64,000 nucleotides of DNA from Dehalococcoidia bacterium (GTDB lineage Bacteria; Chloroflexota; Dehalococcoidia; Lucifugimonadales; UBA1127). This document shows, piece by piece, positions 31,895-40,480 of the stretch (positions are counted from its first letter, which is position 1; each line of letters starts with the position of its first letter). The stretch lies in NCBI GenBank assembly GCA_965249315.1, contig OZ252225.1:1574814-1638813 (forward strand). The letters run 5' to 3'. The notes beneath the pieces were generated by a model that worked only from the letters and a program-made list of their open reading frames with translations, was not told the origin of the DNA and ran no database searches. The translations under genes and the position numbers were made by a program.

Positions 31895-32356
31895 CTACGC
31901 CCGCCACATCCCTCGTAGCACCAGCACGCTCATCGCCGCCGACGCCACCAGCGCCGGCGCTCCCACCAGCAGCTGCACGTCCGAGTCCCCCACCGCCGGC
32001 CACCACCGCGCCGACACCGCCGGTATCACCGCCCCCAGCAGCAGCGCCGCGTTCACCAGCGTCAGCACCGCGCTCGCGATCCGACGCTCCGCCCGCCGCA
32101 CCCGGCCCCGCCTCCCGGCGCGCACCCACAGCAGCGCGAAGTGGACCGAGTTGAACCCGCTGCACAGCGCCGTACAGGCGCGCTCCAGGGCCAGCAGAGC
32201 TTCTGGAAGTTCCAACCATCGCCTCCCTCTCCCCACCGATCTCTTGGTGCCGAGAGAATAGAACATCCGTTCCCATTCAGTCAAGAGAGACCTGTCAACG
32301 GAGGGGGCAGAGTGAGGGGGAAAACCGGAAGCGGCACTAACCGCTTCAGGCGCCAC
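31895..32356 (-). CDS. Possible small membrane protein
   Basis: ORF with 2-3 hydrophobic segments, but it is Arg-rich and lies between repeats. It may be spurious. Confidence 0.3.
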   Translation of the reverse strand: MAPEAVSAASGFPPHSAPSVDRSLLTEWERMFYSLGTKRSVGRGRRWLELPEALLALERACTALCSGFNSVHFALLWVRAGRRGRVRRAERRIASAVLTLVNAALLLGAVIPAVSARWWPAVGDSDVQLLVGAPALVASAAMSVLVLRGMWRA

Positions 32357-32428
32357 TCAGAAGCTCAGGCAAGGCGTGACGTGAGGCTGTGACGCTAGTA
32401 GAATCGCCCTGGAGGTGAGGAGGAGGAC

Positions 32429-33778
32429 ATGACGACCCGTCCACTACACCTAGGCCTTCTGCTCGCCGTGCTCGCGCTCACGGCGGCGTGCAGCGACAAC
32501 GACGATGTGATCGGCGGGAGTGCCGCGTCCCGAGCATACCTCGCGGATGAGCCTCGACCTAACCTTACTGATGAGATACCGCCATGCACCCCCGCTGAAG
32601 GAGCGGAGGTTGACCCTTGCGCTCCCGGTGCTTCGCCTAGTATTGCCAATACCAATGCTTCCGACCGCATCCCGTTCGGCGAGCCTGTGGGCGTTCGTCA
32701 CTACCTGGACGGGGGTTCCCTTTCCGGCCACCTTGTCGTCCGGGCCACCTATCTGCCGGGAACTGTCAGATGTGTGACTCAGAATAGCCGACGCCCCCCC
32801 TATGCACCTCTCACGGGGGAAGCGTTTTTTGGGGAGGGACTTGGCGTTGTGACCTGCTACGCTGACATTCGGGTCAACGCCTATGTCCTGGGGTCTGGGC
32901 CGGCAACCTTGTCGGTGGTGGTCGAGCAGGCACGAGTCAACGACCGGGAAATGACTGACCCGGCTGACCAGGAACGGGAGCGGAGCACCGTGGAACGGGT
33001 GGTGGTCGAAGGCGGGATTCACTATCGGGGCTTGGGTCTGGAAGTTCCGGCGGGAGGGATAGGCGGCAGGGAAGAGATCATGTTCCTTGGCCCGGCCCAA
33101 GACCACTCCCTTGCGGCGTGGCAGGTCTTCTCGGTGTGGGACGTTGAGCGGCGCGAGGACGGCACGGTTATCGCCGTTCACCCCTACCGCGGGTGGTGGC
33201 TCTATCACCACGACGAGACTTACCAGGCCAGTGTCGAGATGTCTCTAAACACCTTCAAGACCAAGGTCGCCGAGGCCTACGCCGCAAGAGTGACGGAGTA
33301 CGGCGGCCGCATCAAGGCTGACCCCGACAGCCCCATGCTGATTACGAGGGTCGATGGACTGGCCGCATACCACACGGAGTCCGGCGCCGCCGCCCACCCC
33401 AGCGGTCTCCGGGAAACGCCGCCGCCCTGTGGCACGGCAGTGCCCAACTACCTTGACAACCATGGTCTCGTGCTCGACTGCGACACGCTGCTAGGTCTCA
33501 AGGACACGCTGCGTGGCACAGCCACCCTCAACTGGAGCGTGGACATCGCCATTGCGAAGTGGGAGGGCATCAGGACCGGGGGTATCGGACGCGTCACCGC
33601 CATCACCTTGGTGGAAAAGGGCCTCACCGGCACTGTCCCAGCGGAGCTTGCGGCGCTCCCGGACCTGACGACGCTCAAGCTGTCGGGGAACAGCCTCACC
33701 GGCTGCATCCCCGTCGCGCTCCAGGACGTGCCCACCAACGATCTGGACGACCTCGGCCTCCCGGACTGCGCCCAGTAG
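32429..33778 (+). CDS. Secreted lipoprotein with a C-terminal leucine-rich-repeat region; paralogue of 2356..3534
   Basis: Signal/lipobox LLLAVLALTAAC, shared N-domain motifs, and C-terminal LRRs (LTGTVPAELAALPDLTTLKLSGNSLTGCIP). Confidence 0.7.
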   Translation: MTTRPLHLGLLLAVLALTAACSDNDDVIGGSAASRAYLADEPRPNLTDEIPPCTPAEGAEVDPCAPGASPSIANTNASDRIPFGEPVGVRHYLDGGSLSGHLVVRATYLPGTVRCVTQNSRRPPYAPLTGEAFFGEGLGVVTCYADIRVNAYVLGSGPATLSVVVEQARVNDREMTDPADQERERSTVERVVVEGGIHYRGLGLEVPAGGIGGREEIMFLGPAQDHSLAAWQVFSVWDVERREDGTVIAVHPYRGWWLYHHDETYQASVEMSLNTFKTKVAEAYAARVTEYGGRIKADPDSPMLITRVDGLAAYHTESGAAAHPSGLRETPPPCGTAVPNYLDNHGLVLDCDTLLGLKDTLRGTATLNWSVDIAIAKWEGIRTGGIGRVTAITLVEKGLTGTVPAELAALPDLTTLKLSGNSLTGCIPVALQDVPTNDLDDLGLPDCAQ

Positions 33779-33800
33779 GACACCGCCGCCGTCCCCCAGC

Positions 33801-34737: not shown

Positions 34738-35147
34738 GCCCCCTCCGAATGCGCGTCGTAGCTCCCGCAGCGCCCCATTCTAGCCCACGCCGCCCGAAGG
34801 GCGAAAGGACGGTAGGGATTCAGGAGAAGTACAAGGGATGAGATGGATGGTTACAATGGTGGCGTGATGTGTGCACTCCGAGTTTCCGCAGCCATGATAG
34901 AATGGGACTTGGGGGGGATTGACCGAGTTCCACTAAAGCCTTAAGAGATCCCTACTCTTCTCCCGCGGAGCCGCGGAACAGCATCTGCTGCTTGAGGTTG
35001 GCGGCGAACCAACGTTGTGTCCGGTCCAGAACCAGATCCGCCGCACGATCGACAGTGGCAGTCTGCGCGGGGCAGCCGCGGCCATCATCTAAGTGCCCAC
35101 ATCAGGCCTTGGTCCCCGCCTCTCAACTTGGGACTAAAGGAGGAGGC

Positions 35148-36164
35148 ATGCCGAGACACTCCTTCAACACTTTGATGCGGCGACTAGCTCACTCAGGATT
35201 CAGGAAGCAATTCGTATCGACTGCTCTGATGCCAGATTGGTGGGAGGAGTCGTATGCTCAGGATTCGACGGTGTTACCAGAGGTTGAGATTCGCATTGCC
35301 CGCTTCTTGAATGTTCCTCTTTCCGTAGTCAGAGACGCTGAAACAGAACTAGCACCTCCAGTCTATGGGGATGCCCAGTTGAGGAGAGTGCGTGATATCG
35401 ACCGAGGCAGATTGGGACCTGCGATCCACACTGCGATGCGAGTCGCTGAAGCCGTGATTCGAAACCTACGATGTACCCAATCGAAGCCATCTCAACTTCC
35501 CGACAACGCTCTCGAGTGGAGAAGGATCCTTAGATCAAGGAGTAGTGGCCCAGTACAGTTGGATGACATACTCTGTGCCCTCTGGGCGAATGGAATTCCA
35601 GTCATCCCCATCGACACGTTACCTGCACCTGGCTTTCAAGGGCTGGCCTGTATCGTCGACGGCCATCCCACGATCGTCCTCGGGCAAAAGTACGACGAGC
35701 CGAGTCACGTGGCGTTCATTGTGGCCCATGAAGCGGGGCACATTGCCTCTGGTCATTGCTCGCTTCGGATGCTGGTTGTAGACCAGGACAAAGACATTAG
35801 AGACGGTTCAGAGGTGGAGCGTGCAGCAGACTGTTTCGCGAAGCGTCTGCTGGTAGGAGACGAGACCGTGACGATCCCGGTCCAAGAACAATTGGATGCA
35901 AAGAGCCTTGCGGAACGAGCCGTTGACCTTGAGAGTGAGTATGGTGTAGATGCTGGATCTCTCATATTCACCTGGGCGGCGAGCACACTCAACTATCCCG
36001 CAGCCTCACTGGCGGTAAGAGCCTTATATCGGTCAACAGGTGCTCGTCGTCAAATGAGGCAGCTCTTTGACAGATACATCGACTCCGGTTCTGCTTCGGA
36101 GAGCGACAGAACTCTCTTGCGGTGTGTATATGGCGGAACAGAGCCTCCAGCGGCTACTGCTTGA
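35148..36164 (+). CDS. ImmA/IrrE-like (M78) zinc metallopeptidase with an N-terminal extension
   Basis: HEAGHIASGH (HExxH) in the context FIVAHEAGH, typical of COG2856. ATG 35148 follows AAAGGAGGAGG. Confidence 0.7.
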   Translation: MPRHSFNTLMRRLAHSGFRKQFVSTALMPDWWEESYAQDSTVLPEVEIRIARFLNVPLSVVRDAETELAPPVYGDAQLRRVRDIDRGRLGPAIHTAMRVAEAVIRNLRCTQSKPSQLPDNALEWRRILRSRSSGPVQLDDILCALWANGIPVIPIDTLPAPGFQGLACIVDGHPTIVLGQKYDEPSHVAFIVAHEAGHIASGHCSLRMLVVDQDKDIRDGSEVERAADCFAKRLLVGDETVTIPVQEQLDAKSLAERAVDLESEYGVDAGSLIFTWAASTLNYPAASLAVRALYRSTGARRQMRQLFDRYIDSGSASESDRTLLRCVYGGTEPPAATA

Positions 36165-36759
36165 TACTGACGCGTATTGCAAACTCGGCAGCGCTGGGCT
36201 CCTTGCCGATGCCATGGCAGTCCTTGACGTTCCTATTTGTACCTGCGGCAGGTTGGCCGCCCTTCCATATATGCTCAGACGGGGAGGTCTACGAAGGAAG
36301 TTCGGTGATTACACATCCGACCAACTTGCGCGTCTAGCCGAAACACTGCCTGTCGCTCTAGCACCTGGAGATGATTGGCTGGACCCGCTTGCCACCGTGC
36401 CTTCGATAGACCCAGGGGAGGCCCAACTTCTGGCAGCCTCAGCAGAGCATGGACTGTTGGTACTCACCGGAGACAAGAGGGGACTGATCGGCGTCAAGGA
36501 CATACCTGGCTACGCTCAAGCGTTGGACGGACACATCATCGTACTTGAAGCAATCCTGGCTGAACTGTGTATGCGATTAGGGGAAAGCACAATTCGCTCA
36601 CGAATCGGCCCTGTAATGGAAGTGGACATCGCTGTTAGGAACTGCTTCTCGGGTTCAGGTTCGTGCTCGACAGTCGCACTAATATCCTACTACCAACACC
36701 TTGCGGTCGACCTTCAACCTCTACGCTTGTGGAAACCACCATCTCTCGGAGCGAAATGA
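36130..36759 (+). CDS. PIN-like domain protein (putative nuclease)
   Basis: Acidic residues are spaced as in PIN folds: LLLDTDAY..., IDPGEAQLLAAS, LVLTGDKR. It overlaps the ImmA gene by 35 nt. Confidence 0.45.
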   Translation: MAEQSLQRLLLDTDAYCKLGSAGLLADAMAVLDVPICTCGRLAALPYMLRRGGLRRKFGDYTSDQLARLAETLPVALAPGDDWLDPLATVPSIDPGEAQLLAASAEHGLLVLTGDKRGLIGVKDIPGYAQALDGHIIVLEAILAELCMRLGESTIRSRIGPVMEVDIAVRNCFSGSGSCSTVALISYYQHLAVDLQPLRLWKPPSLGAK

Positions 36760-37847
36760 TTTTCGGCCAGGCACTATGTTCCGGTTCTGAAGGTCCCAGG
36801 CACTATGTTCCGGTTCTGAAGGCCAAGCGAGCAGAAAAGCGAGCCTTGTCGCTTCTCTCGCCCAATTTGCGACCGCACGTGGTGCCTTTGCTGGAGATTG
36901 TCGAAAGGACCGTAAAACCGACTGTTGATAAGCACCTTGACACGGTCTTCAGTAATCTAGCTGGAAGCCTGTATGGATACAGCCGCTGTCTGCTGGACCT
37001 CCGAGAAATAGCGCCTGACGGAGCGCAAGCTGCATCCAATGCGTTCATCCGAGCGGCGAATGCGGGCATTCCCTTTACGCCCGTGACTGGTATCTCCAGG
37101 ACGGTTGATGTGGCCTTAGCCGTCGCTATGAGCAGCACCAGGGGAGTCGGACTAAGGCTGACTCGCCAGGAACTTGAGAGCGGTGGTCTGGCCGGTAAGC
37201 TGAGCAGCTTCCTGATCAGCAATGGCCTTATGCCTGAATCTGTAGATCTAGTCATAGACCTTGGGCCCGTGGAAGAGTTGGTCACTGCTGGCGTAGCTGC
37301 CCTCGCAAGAGCTTTCCTCGCAGAAATCCCTCACAAGAGCCGATGGAGGACGTTCACCGTTGTAGGATGTTCCTTCCCCTTGAGCATGGGGGTCGTCAAC
37401 CGTAACTCATCAGCGAGAATCCAGCGATCGGAATGGCTGGCATGGAGAGAAAGCTTGTATAGGCAAAGGGCTTCACTGGAGCGCTTGCCAACGTTCAGTG
37501 ACTGCGTAATTCAACATCCTGCCGGAGTAGAAGGCTTTGATCCCCGCTTCATGCAAGCTAGTGCAACGATCCGATACGCCTCGGCCGATGACTGGCTTCT
37601 CGTAAAAGGAGAAGGCACCAAAAGCAATCCTTCACGTTTCCAGTTTCCTCAGCTCGCCACGCAACTAGTCTACGGGGCTCTGCAGAGTGCATTCGTCGGC
37701 TCGCCGCACTGTGCGGGGTGCAAAGCAGCGAAGAATGCGGCGGATGGTAAGGATGGCTACGGCTCACCAGAGGTCTGGAGATGGATAGGCACGGTGCATC
37801 ACGTCACGGCCGTGGTCCAAGACCTCTCTTCGCTCCGGTGGCCGTGA
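36756..37847 (+). CDS. Beta-protein / sce7725-like family protein (function unknown)
   Basis: The N-terminal YVPVLKAKRAEKRAL...VVPLLEIV motif matches my recollection of Pfam Beta_protein and sce7725-type proteins. There is an ATGA overlap with the upstream gene. Confidence 0.55.
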   Translation: MIFGQALCSGSEGPRHYVPVLKAKRAEKRALSLLSPNLRPHVVPLLEIVERTVKPTVDKHLDTVFSNLAGSLYGYSRCLLDLREIAPDGAQAASNAFIRAANAGIPFTPVTGISRTVDVALAVAMSSTRGVGLRLTRQELESGGLAGKLSSFLISNGLMPESVDLVIDLGPVEELVTAGVAALARAFLAEIPHKSRWRTFTVVGCSFPLSMGVVNRNSSARIQRSEWLAWRESLYRQRASLERLPTFSDCVIQHPAGVEGFDPRFMQASATIRYASADDWLLVKGEGTKSNPSRFQFPQLATQLVYGALQSAFVGSPHCAGCKAAKNAADGKDGYGSPEVWRWIGTVHHVTAVVQDLSSLRWP

Positions 37848-38421
37848 AGAGAGGACGAGTGGCCTTGAGATGAGCGCGCACGGCTACCGCCACCTCATCC
37901 GCCTTGAACAACTCACAGATGCTGTCCCACAGATGCGCTCGGGACTTGCCCCGCAACCCCCGGAGTGTGCGGCGTTTTGCTAAGAGCGCTATTGCTGCTT
38001 CACGCCAAAGGAGCTCTACAAGTGCTCGGACATCACGTTGTGGATTCCTTCGCCCACGTCTGGCGGTCCTAAACCCGGGCCCAGAAGCAGCGGAAGCTAT
38101 TCGCAGAACTTCCCACCAATGGGGGACCATTTTCAACGCTCGGGAGACATGCCGATCGTCGCATACTAGCGTGACGCGGTCGAACACCCTGCTGTACAAG
38201 TTAGCTTGAGATACGAGTCGCCGAAGGTCGTCGCGGCTTGTCTTGATTTCGTATCCGTGAAGATGGTCACCAACTACCACGAGGTCAATTCTTGCGTTCC
38301 CCTGGAGGAGTCCCAGCTCATCAATGAGAAGCGCGTCAGCCTCTTTGCCACCAGCGACCCTTTGGCGCAGAGCTGCTCGGACTGATTCTTCACTGAAGCT
38401 GGTATTTGGCCTATTCGCCAT
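37804..38421 (-). CDS. sce7726-like / MmcB-like PD-(D/E)xK family protein
   Basis: LLIDELGLLQGNARIDLVVVGDHLHGYEIKTSRDDLRRL...YSRVFDRVTLV carries D...ExK. Start chosen at MANRPN; the maximal ORF reaches 38652. Confidence 0.6.
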   Translation of the reverse strand: MANRPNTSFSEESVRAALRQRVAGGKEADALLIDELGLLQGNARIDLVVVGDHLHGYEIKTSRDDLRRLVSQANLYSRVFDRVTLVCDDRHVSRALKMVPHWWEVLRIASAASGPGFRTARRGRRNPQRDVRALVELLWREAAIALLAKRRTLRGLRGKSRAHLWDSICELFKADEVAVAVRAHLKATRPLFTATGAKRGLGPRP

Positions 38422-38689
38422 CTGCGTCAAAACAGCGACCTCAGGCAATCTAGGCGCAACTTCGCCTCGCCAGACCTGGCAAGAAAACCCCAAGTCGCTT
38501 GATCGGGCCGACCGCTTGCCGGACGGTCGCAGAGTTAAGTGAGACGAGTTTGCCGAACCGCTTCCACGGTAGTGGAGGTTCGGGGAGGCCATTAGCGTGC
38601 TACCTGGTAGCCGCCCGACACTGCCTGGTTCAGCATGGATCCCCTTGGTCATAGTGTGGGCAACCTGCTAGCTTGTCAAGGCCGTGGAA

Positions 38690-39120
38690 AAGCGTCCCCC
38701 CCTGCTGCCACCTCCCCCTATCCCGCACACCCCCCGTCCCCTACCCTACCCCCATGCACACACCCACACGCCCCTGGCCGCGCCCCACCTCCCACCCGCG
38801 CCGCAGCTCAACGCTGCCAAGGTGTGGGTGCAGGGCCCGCCCTGCCTTGTTTCCCTTTGTCGATTTCACGCCATCTTTCACCCAGGCCCTCGGCCTCCGT
38901 TCGGCTCGCGCCTTGGCAGATACGACTTGTTCCCCTTTGTCGACGTTTCCGACGCCCCCCAGCGGGGCCGTCCGACCACCGTCCGGCCAGTGCCTGGCAG
39001 ATACGACTTGTCTCCCTTTGTCGACTTGTCCGTCGCGCCTCAATCCCAAGCTGCGCCGCGTCGCCCCAGGCAGGACCAGCCGGAAAAAACGCAAAGCACA
39101 ATTCAAAGCAAGTCAATCCC
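38690..39120 (+). repeat. Left arm of a ~450-bp imperfect inverted repeat (composite GC-rich element)
   Basis: Identical or near-identical cores with the right arm: 38737-38761, 38826-38847, 39048-39072. It contains three ~80-bp tandem sub-repeats. Confidence 0.75.
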
Positions 39121-39167
39121 CCGGAGAGGGGTGGAATGAGGGCGACAGGGGTGAGCGGTCATGCCGC

Positions 39168-39272
39168 CGTAGCCTCGCTGAGGGGGAGTCCAGAGGGGGA
39201 AACCCCTCTTGCAAGGGGTCTGGGGGATGTTCCCCCATTACCAAAAACGTCCGAGGGTGGGTGGGCCCAACC
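39168..39272 (+). repeat. Dispersed ~110-bp GC-rich repeat, copy 2
   Basis: Aligns with 31757-31869. A partial third copy lies at 63793-63824. Confidence 0.8.
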
Positions 39273-39343
39273 AACGTCGCAATGCCGCTCTGCGAAGCCA
39301 ATGAACCAAGAAGCGCAAGCTGAGGGTGCAGGGCTTGCCCTGC

Positions 39344-40480
39344 CTACAGCCCGATGGCTCGGGCCAGCGCCTCCCGATGGAAGTCCGTGTCGCCGTACAG
39401 CAGCTCCCCCGCCTTCACTCGGCGGGTGAACAGCTGGAGGTCGTACTCGCTCGTGAAGCCTATCGCCCCGTGGCACTGGTGCGCCAGTGCGCAGACTCGC
39501 CGGGCGGCGTCGCTCACCCACGCCTTCGCCGCGGCCACCTCCCCCGCCCCGTTCTGCCCCGTCGACACGCTCCACGCAGCCTGGTGCGAGATGTACCGCG
39601 CCGACTCCACGTCCACGGCCATGTTCGCGCAGTGGTGCTGCACCGCCTGGAAGCTCCCCACCGGCCGCCCGAACTGCACCCGGTCCTTCACGTACGCCAC
39701 CGTCATCTCCAGCACCCGCTCGATGGCGCCCAGCATCTCGAAGCACTTCGCCACCGCCGCCCGCTGCAGCGCCCTCTCGACCAGCGCCCAGCCCTCGCCT
39801 TCCTCCCCCACCACGTCCTTCGACGTCACCTTGACGTTGCGGAAGCTCACCTCGCTCAGGCGCTCCGCCGACAGGTTCGGCAGCGGGGTCACGCTGACCC
39901 CCGGGGCGTCGGTGGGCACCAGCAGCAGGGTGATCCCCCGCTCCGGGTTGACGGCCTTGCGGGTCCGTGCCGCCACCACCAGCAGGTCCGACACGTGCGC
40001 GTTCTGCACGAACAGCTTGGTCCCGTTCAGCTGGTACTCGCCCCCTCGGCGAATGGCCCGCGCCGACTGCACTCCGCCCGCCGTCCAGTCCCCACTCGCC
40101 TCCGTCAACGCCAGCGTGGCGATCAGCTCTCCGCGGGCCAGCATCGGGAGGATGTCCCGACGCTGCTCCGGCGAGCCGCCTTCCAGCACGGTGAGCCCTG
40201 CGAGCACCAGAGTCGAGAAGAAGGGGCCTGGGAACAGCGCCCGGCCCATCTCTTCCACAATCAGGCACAGGTCGAAGAAGTCCCCGCCCGTCCCCTGCAA
40301 CTCCTCCGGCAGCGCCAGCCCCGTCCACCCCAGCGACGCGATCTTGCGCCACGCCTCCAGGGTGTACCCCCGGTCGTCGCCCTCCACCTGCCGAACGTAG
40401 GAGAGGGGGCACTCCCGCTCCAGGAACTCGCGGGCGCCCGTCTTGAGCATCTGCTGGGTTTCGGTCAGACCGCGGTCCAT
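39344..40480 (-). CDS. Acyl-CoA dehydrogenase family protein
   Basis: 378 aa with ACAD N, middle and C domain architecture and the typical C-terminal YEGT-like region (LYGDTD). Confidence 0.85.
   Translation of the reverse strand: MDRGLTETQQMLKTGAREFLERECPLSYVRQVEGDDRGYTLEAWRKIASLGWTGLALPEELQGTGGDFFDLCLIVEEMGRALFPGPFFSTLVLAGLTVLEGGSPEQRRDILPMLARGELIATLALTEASGDWTAGGVQSARAIRRGGEYQLNGTKLFVQNAHVSDLLVVAARTRKAVNPERGITLLLVPTDAPGVSVTPLPNLSAERLSEVSFRNVKVTSKDVVGEEGEGWALVERALQRAAVAKCFEMLGAIERVLEMTVAYVKDRVQFGRPVGSFQAVQHHCANMAVDVESARYISHQAAWSVSTGQNGAGEVAAAKAWVSDAARRVCALAHQCHGAIGFTSEYDLQLFTRRVKAGELLYGDTDFHREALARAIGL

What the first reader, a model, noticed from the sequence alone, without database searches (positions are those of the whole stretch)
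34750..38660. AT-richer four-gene island: ImmA-like peptidase, PIN-like protein and Beta-protein/sce7725-like protein, convergent with a sce7726-like PD-(D/E)xK protein. Candidate uncharacterised conflict/defence system
The island sits between the HIT gene and a large repeat, and the sequence is visibly less GC-rich than its flanks.

**Plus-strand genes.** Three genes are translationally coupled (a 35-nt overlap, then ATGA):
- a 338-aa protein with an M78/ImmA HExxH (FIVAHEAGHIASGH) and a long N-terminal extension that may hide a degenerate HTH (RIARFLNVPLSVV)
- a 209-aa protein with PIN-like acidic residues (LLLDTD, GEAQLL, LTGDKR)
- a 363-aa protein starting YVPVLKAKRAEKRAL...PLLEIV, which I recognise as the Beta-protein/sce7725-type family of unknown function

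**Minus-strand gene.** Convergent with these, and overlapping the last gene by 44 nt, is a ~205-aa protein with the sce7726/MmcB-like restriction-endonuclease-fold motif (RIDLVVV...LHGYEIKT).

**Interpretation.** As far as I recall, sce7725 and sce7726 family proteins are habitually neighbours and have no assigned function. Coupling to an ImmA protease (typically a sensor or derepressor in mobile-element immunity) and a PIN nuclease suggests a regulated nuclease-based defence or abortive-infection module.
Basis: partly seen in the sequence, partly recalled or inferred. Interest (0 to 1): 0.8.

Follow-up and report, generated by a model that had tools for sequence, protein, structure and literature searches.

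The report
Peptidase–PIN–Beta–cII phage-defence cassette variant
A horizontally acquired four-gene cassette joins a zinc-peptidase/PIN-nuclease pair to the Beta–cII gene pair of two validated but mechanistically unsolved anti-phage systems (satellite P4 Gop-β-cII, E. coli PD-λ-2), making it a conserved, undescribed variant of a known defence family rather than a new kind of system.

Summary

Family assignments:
- g1 is an HTH-less ImmA/IrrE/CapP-like Zn-peptidase with an invariant HExxH.
- g2 is an unannotated PIN-fold protein (AF2 pLDDT 94, VapC/PAE2754 top hits) with a conserved acidic tetrad.
- g3 is a Pfam Beta_protein (1e-51) and matches PD-Lambda-2_C (2e-34).
- g4 is an sce7726/P4-cII family protein with a conserved PD-ExK motif.
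- The 'sce7725' label is not supported.

The 'no assigned function' premise is outdated. Beta and cII, in the same convergent layout, belong to the validated P4 Gop-β-cII defence system, and Beta is the essential third gene of PD-λ-2.

The four genes recur in the same order and orientation in 49 of 68 genome loci from about 10 phyla, all MAGs. All four are under purifying selection. Each half also occurs alone or with other partners, so the cassette is a fixed fusion of two modules.

My best reading is a protease-controlled PIN-nuclease abortive-infection or TA-like system that uses Beta–cII as a sensing or neutralising core. This mechanism is inferred, not shown.

Novelty: new variant of a known kind. 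Interest about 0.5.

The parts
34750..38500 (.). Low-GC island (about 0.55, against about 0.70 in the flanks) that holds the cassette. It lies between a HIT/HD gene pair on the left and acyl-CoA dehydrogenase genes on the right.
   Evidence: Composition profile; flank identities from Pfam. In 38 of 46 related loci the cassette GC is also below the flank GC.
34738..35147 (+). Upstream intergenic region, presumed to hold the promoter and regulatory region of g1-g2-g3.
   Evidence: 69% identical over 396 nt to the equivalent region of relative L073. The consensus scan found no sigma-70-like site, so the promoter is not located.
35148..36164 (+). g1: 338-aa ImmA/IrrE/CapP-like Zn-metallopeptidase. 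It has no detectable HTH. It carries conserved N-terminal (LPDWW) and C-terminal helical domains.
   Evidence: Pfam Peptidase_M78 20.7 bits. PADLOC capP 8.7e-7 and PD-Lambda-2_B 9e-6. Family of 363+ proteins. Invariant H194, E195, H198, C204, D219, E224. AF2 pLDDT 87. Foldseek top hit CapP 7t5t, E 7.5e-4. Profile versus PDB: CapP 1e-3.
36130..36759 (+). g2: 209-aa PIN-fold protein from an unannotated family, the presumed nuclease effector. It overlaps g1 by 35 nt.
   Evidence: No hit in Pfam, NCBIfam or PADLOC. 127 close homologues, none named. 1624 clusters at E<=1e-3. AF2 pLDDT 93.7. Foldseek top 16 hits are all PIN/VapC proteins, probability 0.98-1.00. Invariant D12, D14, E97, D115, with D166 in more than 90% of members.
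36756..37847 (+). g3: 363-aa Beta protein (P4 β / PD-λ-2C family). Its ATG overlaps the g2 stop codon (ATGA).
   Evidence: Pfam Beta_protein 1.1e-51. PADLOC PD-Lambda-2_C 1.8e-34 and 'beta' 1e-3. 21% identity over the full length to P4 beta, E 3e-6. Conserved polar residues across the wide family: E27, D81, R134, D168, D249, H254, R264, H349.
36767..36822 (+). 27-nt in-frame duplication (36767-36793 copies 36796-22). It adds 9 aa ahead of the conserved YVPVLK start of Beta.
   Evidence: Repeat finder and alignment to five relatives. An otherwise 100% identical 354-aa copy without the duplication exists in another public assembly.
37804..38421 (-). g4: 205-aa P4-cII / sce7726 family protein with a PD-(D/E)xK motif, convergent with g3.
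   Evidence: NCBIfam sce7726_fam 5.7e-41, 140.5 bits against a cut-off of 70. PADLOC 'cll' 3.3e-27. 30% identity to P4 cII, E 1e-14. Invariant E35, D46, E58, K60.
37804..37847 (.). 44-nt convergent overlap of the 3' ends of g3 and g4.
   Evidence: An overlap is present in 39 of 39 intact related loci (23-119 nt, median 44). It is also present in the plasmid and E. coli Beta/sce7726 pairs.

Best explanation
The island is a horizontally acquired, self-contained anti-phage (abortive-infection or toxin-antitoxin-like) cassette of the Beta–cII family. That family includes P4 Gop-β-cII and E. coli PD-λ-2.

The cassette is a fixed fusion of two modules:
- Module A (g1+g2) is a protease-plus-nuclease pair. 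It consists of an ImmA/IrrE/CapP-type Zn-peptidase that lacks the usual HTH and a PIN-fold nuclease.
- Module B (g3+g4) is the convergent, 3'-overlapping Beta + cII (PD-ExK) pair.

Proposed mechanism (inferred, not shown):
1. In uninfected cells the PIN nuclease is kept inactive in a complex with its partners.
2. A phage product or infection cue is sensed through Beta. Beta is required for defence in PD-λ-2, and a phage protein triggers Gop-β-cII.
3. The peptidase then cleaves an inhibitory partner or segment.
4. This releases the nuclease activity of PIN, and possibly of cII, which stops the infected cell.

Shown here: family memberships, conserved catalytic motifs, conserved gene order and coupling, foreign composition, purifying selection, and modularity.

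Inferred: the defence phenotype, which protein is the toxin, and the peptidase substrate.
For: Family and fold assignments:
- Families.
- P4 has the identical beta→←cII layout, and its cII is annotated as sce7726 family. Homology of g3 to beta and g4 to cII is confirmed by BLASTP.
- Folds: g2 is PIN-like. g1 is CapP-like.
- Catalytic residues are invariant in all three enzyme-like proteins.

Conservation of the cassette:
- The four-gene order and orientation are conserved in 49 of 68 genome loci from about 10 phyla. It is also present in L002, L004, L073 and L075-L077.
- Translational coupling and the convergent overlap are conserved.
- dN/dS is 0.10-0.34.
- The cassette sits at unrelated chromosomal sites and has a lower GC than its flanks.

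Modularity:
- g1+g2 occur alone in L003 and L082-L085.
- Beta+cII occur alone in E. coli prophages.
- Beta+cII occur with PD-Lambda-2_B (6.7e-75) in Agrobacterium and with DUF6308 in Rhodococcus.

Literature:
- Gop-β-cII protects against λ and P1, and gop is toxic without β (PMC9122126).
- A phage gene, orf184, triggers Gop-β-cII cell death (bioRxiv 10.1101/2023.04.06.535777).
- PD-λ-2 consists of a HigB-like protein, an Xre-M78 protein and Beta, acts by abortive infection, and needs Beta for defence (PMC9519451).
- An HTH–DUF955(M78)–PIN architecture has been predicted as a three-component TA system (PMC5499597).
Against: - No phenotype data exist for this variant. All carriers are uncultured MAGs.
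- The cassette has no homologue of Gop or of PD-λ-2A, and g1 has no HTH. The regulatory logic of the known systems therefore cannot simply be transferred.
- In PD-λ-2 the peptidase protein itself, not the RNase-like partner, was toxic (PMC9519451). The assignment of PIN as the toxin could be wrong.
- The cassette is not clearly enriched next to known defence genes. In a census of 142 flanking genes, most were housekeeping and only a few were RM- or SNF2-like or transposase genes.
- The g2 family is absent from sequenced phages and plasmids.
- The biochemical function of Beta is unknown and it has no solved relative.
Confidence: 0.6

Rival explanations
1. Two independent systems happen to sit side by side: a g1–g2 protease/PIN TA-like pair and a Beta–cII pair. 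Each works alone, with no functional integration between them.
For: Each pair occurs without the other. g1+g2 stand alone in L003, L044, L056, L060 and L082-L085. Beta+sce7726 stand alone in 93 E. coli genomes and on a plasmid.
Against: g2 and g3 are translationally coupled through ATGA. The same order, orientation and spacing are kept in 49 of 68 loci across about 10 phyla. Two gene calls fuse g2 with Beta_protein (P0041 and P0116). In P4 and PD-λ-2, Beta acts functionally with its upstream partner (PMC9122126, PMC9519451).
Confidence: 0.15
2. The cassette is a purely selfish addiction (toxin–antitoxin) element. It persists by post-segregational killing and gives no anti-phage benefit.
For: The architecture is TA-like. 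The cassettes are solitary insertions among housekeeping genes, with little defence-island association. Decayed copies exist in L012, L022, L037, L039, L054, L059 and L063.
Against: The two characterised relatives both protect against phage (PMC9122126, PMC9519451). Four conserved genes with three catalytic sites is more than addiction requires. No plasmid carriage was found, although plasmids are where addiction modules pay off.
Confidence: 0.15
3. The cassette is a stress or DNA-damage regulatory switch of the ImmA/ImmR, IrrE/DdrO or CapP/CapH type, controlling host or mobile-element genes.
For: The closest structural relative of g1 is CapP, and IrrE is a weaker match.
Against: No XRE/HTH repressor substrate is encoded in or next to the cassette. 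The flanking genes differ at every locus, so there is no conserved regulon. No integrase or phage genes are adjacent in the window.
Confidence: 0.05
4. The island is a remnant of a P4-like satellite or prophage accessory region.
For: Beta–cII is carried by satellite P4 and by E. coli lambdoid prophages. One IMG/VR contig carries this subfamily.
Against: No integrase, tRNA, att-like flanking repeat or phage gene lies within or beside the island. The same compact four-gene unit recurs without phage genes in dozens of genomes.
Confidence: 0.03

Closest known systems
Gop-β-cII anti-phage system of satellite phage P4 (Ghisotti 1990; Rousset 2022, PMC9122126)
   Same: Homologous Beta (g3) and cII/sce7726 (g4) genes in the same layout, beta→ ←cII convergent, with an upstream partner gene on the Beta strand. 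The character is TA-like or abortive-infection-like.
   Different: The 133-aa Gop toxin is absent. It is replaced by two genes, an M78 peptidase and a PIN-like protein. Identity is low: Beta 21%, cII 30%. In this family g3 and g4 overlap at their 3' ends, whereas P4 has a 28-nt gap with a terminator. The cassette is chromosomal and not on a satellite.
PD-λ-2 (Vassallo 2022, PMC9519451): HigB-like A + Xre-HTH–M78 peptidase B + Beta protein C
   Same: It combines an ImmA/IrrE-type peptidase, an RNase-type toxin-like protein and a Beta protein on one strand. g3 scores 1.8e-34 on PD-Lambda-2_C, its best PADLOC match. A PD-λ-2B/C locus on an Agrobacterium plasmid also carries a convergent cII.
   Different: There is no HigB-like A. 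The nuclease-like partner is a PIN-fold protein and lies downstream, not upstream, of the peptidase. g1 matches PD-Lambda-2_B only over the peptidase core (9e-6), and no HTH is detected. A fourth gene, cII, is a fixed component.
Predicted three-component TA systems: HTH + DUF955/COG2856 (M78) protease + PIN-like nuclease (DUF4411, COG2405, PIN_14/20/26; Matelska 2017, PMC5499597; Makarova 2009, PMC2701414)
   Same: An M78 peptidase gene lies immediately upstream of, and is co-transcribed with, a PIN-like gene. The g1–g2 pair also exists alone.
   Different: No HTH component is present. g2 matches no Pfam PIN-like family; only 3 of 61 members hit PIN weakly, and none hits DUF4411. Here the pair is fused to Beta–cII.
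CapP/CapH (CBASS regulation), IrrE/DdrO and ImmA/ImmR protease–repressor switches
   Same: The Zn-metallopeptidase fold and HExxH motif are shared. CapP is the best structural and profile match.
   Different: Those proteases cleave a cognate XRE-family repressor that is encoded next to them. No such repressor is encoded here. g1 has extra, family-specific N- and C-terminal domains.
VapBC-type PIN toxin–antitoxin systems
   Same: g2 has the PIN fold with a conserved acidic set: D12, E97, D115, D166.
   Different: There is no VapB-type antitoxin. g2 has an insertion of about 50 residues and a C-terminal helical extension of about 60 residues. Sequence similarity to PF01850 is below threshold.

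Membership tests
Gop-β-cII (P4) defence system | Gop toxin homologue | tested here: not met
   No PADLOC 'gop' hit for any of the four proteins, while P4 Gop itself scores 4.8e-70. BLASTP of g2 against Gop gives no alignment.
Gop-β-cII (P4) defence system | Beta protein homologue | tested here: met
   Pfam Beta_protein 1.1e-51. Full-length BLASTP alignment to P4 beta, E 3e-6. PADLOC 'beta' matches only at 1e-3.
Gop-β-cII (P4) defence system | cII homologue, convergent with beta | tested here: met
   PADLOC 'cll' 3.3e-27. BLASTP to P4 cII, E 1e-14. Layout compared.
Gop-β-cII (P4) defence system | Protection against phage; toxicity of the upstream gene neutralised by Beta | not testable with these tools
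   Requires expression and phage challenge.
PD-λ-2 | Component A: HigB-like toxin upstream | tested here: not met
   No PD-Lambda-2_A or HigB hit. The 410 nt upstream of g1 hold no such ORF.
PD-λ-2 | Component B: Xre HTH fused to an M78 peptidase | tested here: not met
   The peptidase core matches weakly (PD-Lambda-2_B 9.2e-6, profile positions 245-342 only). No HTH is found by Pfam or by hhalign against two HTH-M78 proteins. A genuine PD-λ-2B homologue scores 6.7e-75.
PD-λ-2 | Component C: Beta protein | tested here: met
   PD-Lambda-2_C 1.8e-34 over the full length, comparable to the scores of the plasmid and E. coli members.
Peptidase_M78 / ImmA-IrrE (g1) | HExxH zinc site and M78 fold | tested here: met
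   H194, E195 and H198 are invariant in 56 sequences. Foldseek top hit is CapP, probability 1.0. The Pfam score of 20.7 is just below the gathering score of 22, so membership rests on motif plus fold.
PIN domain-like superfamily (g2) | PIN fold with 3-4 conserved acidic residues | tested here: met
   AF2 pLDDT 93.7. PIN/VapC structures fill the top ranks, probability about 1.0 and target-normalised TM-score (TMt) 0.5-0.64, although E-values are only about 0.015. D12, E97 and D115 are invariant and D166 is in more than 90% of members. No Pfam PIN family reaches threshold.
sce7726 family / PD-(D/E)xK (g4) | NCBIfam NF033832 above its cut-off; D…ExK motif | tested here: met
   140.5 bits against a cut-off of 70. 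D46, E58 and K60 are invariant in 41 sequences. The nuclease fold itself was not modelled.
   No hit at E<=0.1 for g3. No hit at E<=10 for any of 43 homologues.
Defence-island resident | Enrichment next to known defence genes | tested here: inconclusive
   One locus lies in a clear defence island (L077: AbiU2 HEPN, HNH, HTH-M78). One lies next to a type III RM system (L003). In the census of 142 flanking genes, most are housekeeping, and no background control was run.

The most novel reading that the evidence does not exclude
Beta–cII may be a portable two-gene core, acting as sensor, neutraliser or second nuclease, that plugs onto interchangeable toxin 'front ends'. Known or observed front ends are Gop, HigB-like + Xre-M78, DUF6932 + Xre-M78, DUF6308, and here an HTH-less M78 peptidase + PIN. 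On this reading the cassette is a proteolytically gated PIN-nuclease abortive-infection system. Dissecting it would reveal the still unknown general mechanism of the whole Beta family, including whether Beta is an enzyme.
Probability: 0.3. Interest if true: 0.65.

Novelty: new variant of a known kind. Interest (0 to 1): 0.5.

Why it matters
Gop-β-cII and PD-λ-2 are experimentally validated anti-phage systems whose mechanisms are unknown. This cassette links them. It carries the Beta–cII pair of the first and the peptidase-plus-RNase-like logic of the second.

The comparison also shows that Beta–cII recurs with at least five unrelated upstream partners. That points to Beta–cII as the common functional core and gives a comparative handle on what Beta does.

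The work also defines two sizeable unannotated families:
- a PIN-fold family with 1624 50%-identity clusters and no Pfam model;
- an HTH-less M78 peptidase family of about 335 aa.

Current PADLOC models would not call this cassette as a complete system.

Tried and rejected
1. **CARD/death-fold in the g2 C-terminus.** A profile-versus-PDB search gave NLRP1 CARD at E 0.06. I rejected it for three reasons:
   - the aligned stretch (110-200) includes PIN β-strands;
   - the C-terminal extension is only about 60 aa;
   - no Pfam CARD or Death hit appears in 61 members.
2. **Degenerate HTH in the g1 N-terminus.** Pfam does not detect one, and hhalign against HTH-M78 proteins from L077 and from Agrobacterium aligns only the peptidase core. 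This could not be excluded structurally.
3. **sce7725 membership of g3.** No hits.
4. **Mobility signatures in the window.** There is no flanking direct or inverted repeat beyond chance, no integrase and no adjacent tRNA.
5. **Promoter, terminator and Rfam scans.** Nothing rose above background.
6. **Carriage on sequenced plasmids or phages.** None for g2. Only one IMG/VR contig carries the Beta subfamily.
7. **Solved-structure relatives of Beta and cII by sequence profile.** None.
9. **Literature searches for PF14350, Beta_protein and sce7725.** Nothing relevant was returned.

Full report
**1. Observation**

| Gene | Coordinates | Strand | Length |
|---|---|---|---|
| g1 | 35148-36164 | + | 338 aa |
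| g2 | 36130-36759 | + | 209 aa |
| g3 | 36756-37847 | + | 363 aa |
| g4 | 37804-38421 | − | 205 aa |

- g1 and g2 overlap by 35 nt. g2 and g3 share ATGA. g3 and g4 overlap convergently by 44 nt.
- GC falls from 0.70-0.74 to 0.52-0.59 between about 34750 and 38500, then returns to about 0.70.
- The left flank holds an HD-domain gene and a HIT gene. The right flank holds acyl-CoA dehydrogenase genes.
- There is no integrase, no adjacent tRNA and no convincing flanking repeat.

**2. The four proteins**

*g1: peptidase.*
- It matches Peptidase_M78 just below Pfam's threshold (20.7 bits against 22).
- In PADLOC it weakly matches capP (8.7e-7), RmrA models and PD-Lambda-2_B (9e-6, peptidase core only).
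- It belongs to a family of more than 363 proteins of about 335 aa, conserved end to end. H194, E195, H198, C204, D219 and E224 are invariant.
- An AF2 model (pLDDT 87) has CapP (7t5t) as its only significant PDB neighbour (E 7.5e-4). The family profile also finds CapP (1e-3), and IrrE weakly.
- No HTH is detectable.

*g2: PIN-fold protein.*
- It has no hit in Pfam, NCBIfam or PADLOC.
- It belongs to a real family: 127 close homologues, none named, and 1624 50%-identity clusters at E<=1e-3.
- Its AF2 model is confident (pLDDT 93.7).
- Its best PDB neighbours are all PIN/VapC proteins: PAE2754, VapC11, Shigella VapC and AF0591. Probability is about 1.0, but E-values are only about 0.015.
- D12, D14, E97 and D115 are invariant, and D166 is nearly so. 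This gives the D-E-D-D order of a PIN active site.

*g3: Beta protein.*
- It is a full-length Pfam Beta_protein (1.1e-51).
- It matches PD-Lambda-2_C at 1.8e-34.
- No member of its family matches NCBIfam sce7725.

*g4: cII / sce7726.*
- It exceeds the NCBIfam sce7726 cut-off (140.5 bits against 70).
- It matches PADLOC 'cll' at 3.3e-27.
- E35, D46, E58 and K60 are invariant, which is a PD-ExK motif.

**3. Link to known systems**

PADLOC's 'beta' and 'cll' models come from the satellite phage P4. In the P4 record:
- gop (133 aa, +), beta (355 aa, +) and cII (264 aa, −) occupy positions 247-2540.
- RefSeq annotates cII as 'sce7726 family protein'.
- The layout is beta→ ←cII, the same as here.
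- g3 aligns with P4 beta over its full length (21% identity, E 3e-6).
- g4 aligns with P4 cII (30% identity, E 1e-14).
- g2 has no similarity to Gop.

What the literature shows:
- Gop-β-cII protects E. coli against λ and P1. Gop is toxic without β (PMC9122126).
- Its cell-death activity is triggered by a phage accessory gene, orf184 (bioRxiv 10.1101/2023.04.06.535777).
- PD-λ-2 consists of a HigB-like protein, an Xre-HTH–M78 peptidase and a Beta protein. The peptidase is toxic alone and is rescued by the HigB-like protein. Beta is required for defence (PMC9519451).

So the premise that these families 'have no assigned function' is outdated at the system level. Their biochemistry is still unknown.

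**4. Conservation**

- A scan of one genome per species, using the g2 family as query, returned 68 loci. All are MAGs. They come from Chloroflexota (Dehalococcoidia), Acidobacteriota, Gemmatimonadota, Myxococcota, several proteobacterial classes, Planctomycetota, Thermodesulfobacteriota, Actinomycetota, Bacillota and others.
- 49 of the 68 carry all four genes in the same order and orientation. Gene-called contigs L002, L004, L073 and L075-L077 do too.
- Of the remaining loci, several are cut by contig ends, several are decayed or frameshifted, and a few carry g1+g2 only.
- The convergent g3/g4 overlap is present in 39 of 39 intact loci, with a median of 44 nt.
- dN/dS against two relatives is 0.10-0.34 for all four genes.
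- Cassette GC is below flank GC in 38 of 46 loci.
- The flanks differ from locus to locus.
- A close relative (L073) has the cassette next to the same HD/HIT genes, which are 91% identical at the nucleotide level. The cassette proteins are only 82-88% identical.

**5. Modularity**

Module A (g1+g2) occurs without Beta–cII:
- in L003;
- in distant relatives L082-L085;
- in L044, L056, L060 and L061, where the HExxH motif has degenerated to HQxxH or LQxxH.

An M78 peptidase followed by a PIN-like protein is a previously predicted three-component TA architecture (PMC5499597).

Module B (Beta+sce7726) always appears as a 3'-overlapping convergent pair. It is found:
- alone in lambdoid prophage regions of 93 of 5426 complete E. 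coli genomes and on one plasmid;
- with DUF6932 plus a genuine PD-λ-2B homologue (6.7e-75) on an Agrobacterium plasmid;
- with DUF6308 in Rhodococcus;
- with Gop in P4.

The window's island is therefore a fixed, translationally coupled fusion of two modules, each of which is also found without the other. Beta–cII looks like a common core with interchangeable upstream partners.

**6. Mechanism (inferred)**

All three enzyme-like proteins keep their catalytic residues. Across the whole Beta family, from P4 to this cassette, a set of polar residues is retained: E27, D81, R134, D168, D249, H254, R264 and H349. To me this suggests an active or ligand-binding site rather than a passive antitoxin.

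By analogy with PD-λ-2, Gop-β-cII and the CapP/IrrE/ImmA proteases, I propose:
1. The PIN nuclease is held inactive in uninfected cells.
2. An infection cue is sensed through Beta.
3. The peptidase cleaves an inhibitory partner or segment.
4. Nuclease activity from PIN, and perhaps from cII, then aborts the infection.

Confidence:
- About 0.75 that this is a Beta–cII-family conflict or defence cassette.
- About 0.3 for the specific order of events.
- In PD-λ-2 the peptidase protein was the toxic component, so the toxin assignment is uncertain.

**7. Rivals**

- *Two adjacent independent systems.* This is weakened by the coupling and by the fixed architecture across phyla.
- *A purely selfish addiction module.* This is not excluded and is not mutually exclusive with defence.
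- *A stress-response protease–repressor switch.* There is no repressor and no conserved regulon.
- *A prophage or satellite remnant.* There are no phage genes.

Defence-island association is inconclusive. One locus lies in a clear defence island and one lies next to a type III RM system. Most flanks are housekeeping genes.

**8. Verdict**

The families are correct except for sce7725 and the HTH. The defence idea is reasonable, but the system belongs to a known family.
- Novelty: a new variant of a known kind. It is not callable as a complete system with PADLOC v2 models, and two of its four families are unannotated.
- Interest is about 0.5. It is useful as a comparative key to an unsolved defence family, but it is not categorically new.

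Noticed in passing
window 36767-36822: A 27-nt in-frame duplication sits at the 5' end of the Beta gene and adds 9 aa (QALCSGSEG) before the conserved YVPVLK. Five relatives lack it. So does an otherwise 100% identical 354-aa copy in another public assembly (P0383). It is either a recent polymorphism or an assembly artefact.
   Followed up: yes
window 38818-39345: Three imperfect ~80-nt tandem units lie at 38822-39063, with the core CTTGTYYCCCTTTGTCGA. These are the only three copies in the window. They are preceded by a GC hairpin and bracketed by a 30-nt direct repeat (38818-38847 and 39316-39345). They sit in the intergenic region between g4 and the acyl-CoA dehydrogenase gene. There is no Rfam match and the function is unknown.
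   Followed up: partly
L073 6017-8675: In the closest relative, a 2.6-kb insertion lies between the HIT gene and g1. It carries a 398-aa ORF with no Pfam hit and is flanked by a 41-bp direct repeat that matches window 34772-34812. It is probably a mobile element.
   Followed up: partly
L004 5236-9722: The four-gene cassette is bracketed by a 276-nt direct repeat (93% identical). The repeat is a duplicated 3' part of a rhomboid protease gene, and shorter matching segments lie upstream. This looks like an integration or recombination scar and may hint at how the cassette moves.
   Followed up: partly
L044, L056, L060, L061 (g1-g2-only loci): A sub-lineage of the peptidase–PIN pair stands alone, without Beta–cII. 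Its HExxH motif has degenerated to HQxxH or LQxxH, so the peptidase is probably inactive, while the acidic residues of the PIN partner are kept.
   Followed up: no
L012, L022, L037, L039, L042, L054, L059, L063, L066-L072: Several cassettes are frameshifted, truncated or interrupted. In L063, for example, g2 is split by an insertion of about 1.7 kb. L066-L072 keep g1 plus only an N-terminal fragment of g2. Together these indicate frequent decay or remodelling.
   Followed up: no
L081 (E. coli O121 chromosome) and 92 other E. coli genomes; L078 plasmid: A Beta + sce7726 pair with no recognisable upstream partner sits in lambdoid prophage regions next to hokD, IS3 and doc. It is present in 93 of 5426 complete E. 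coli genomes and is nearly identical in all of them.
   Followed up: partly
window 32250-33800: A second stretch of moderately lowered GC (0.62-0.66) holds a 449-aa ORF (32429-33778, +) with a lipoprotein-like N-terminus, a leucine-rich-repeat-like C-terminus and no Pfam hit. The homologous region in L073 is only 65% identical, against 91% for the adjacent HD/HIT genes.
   Followed up: no
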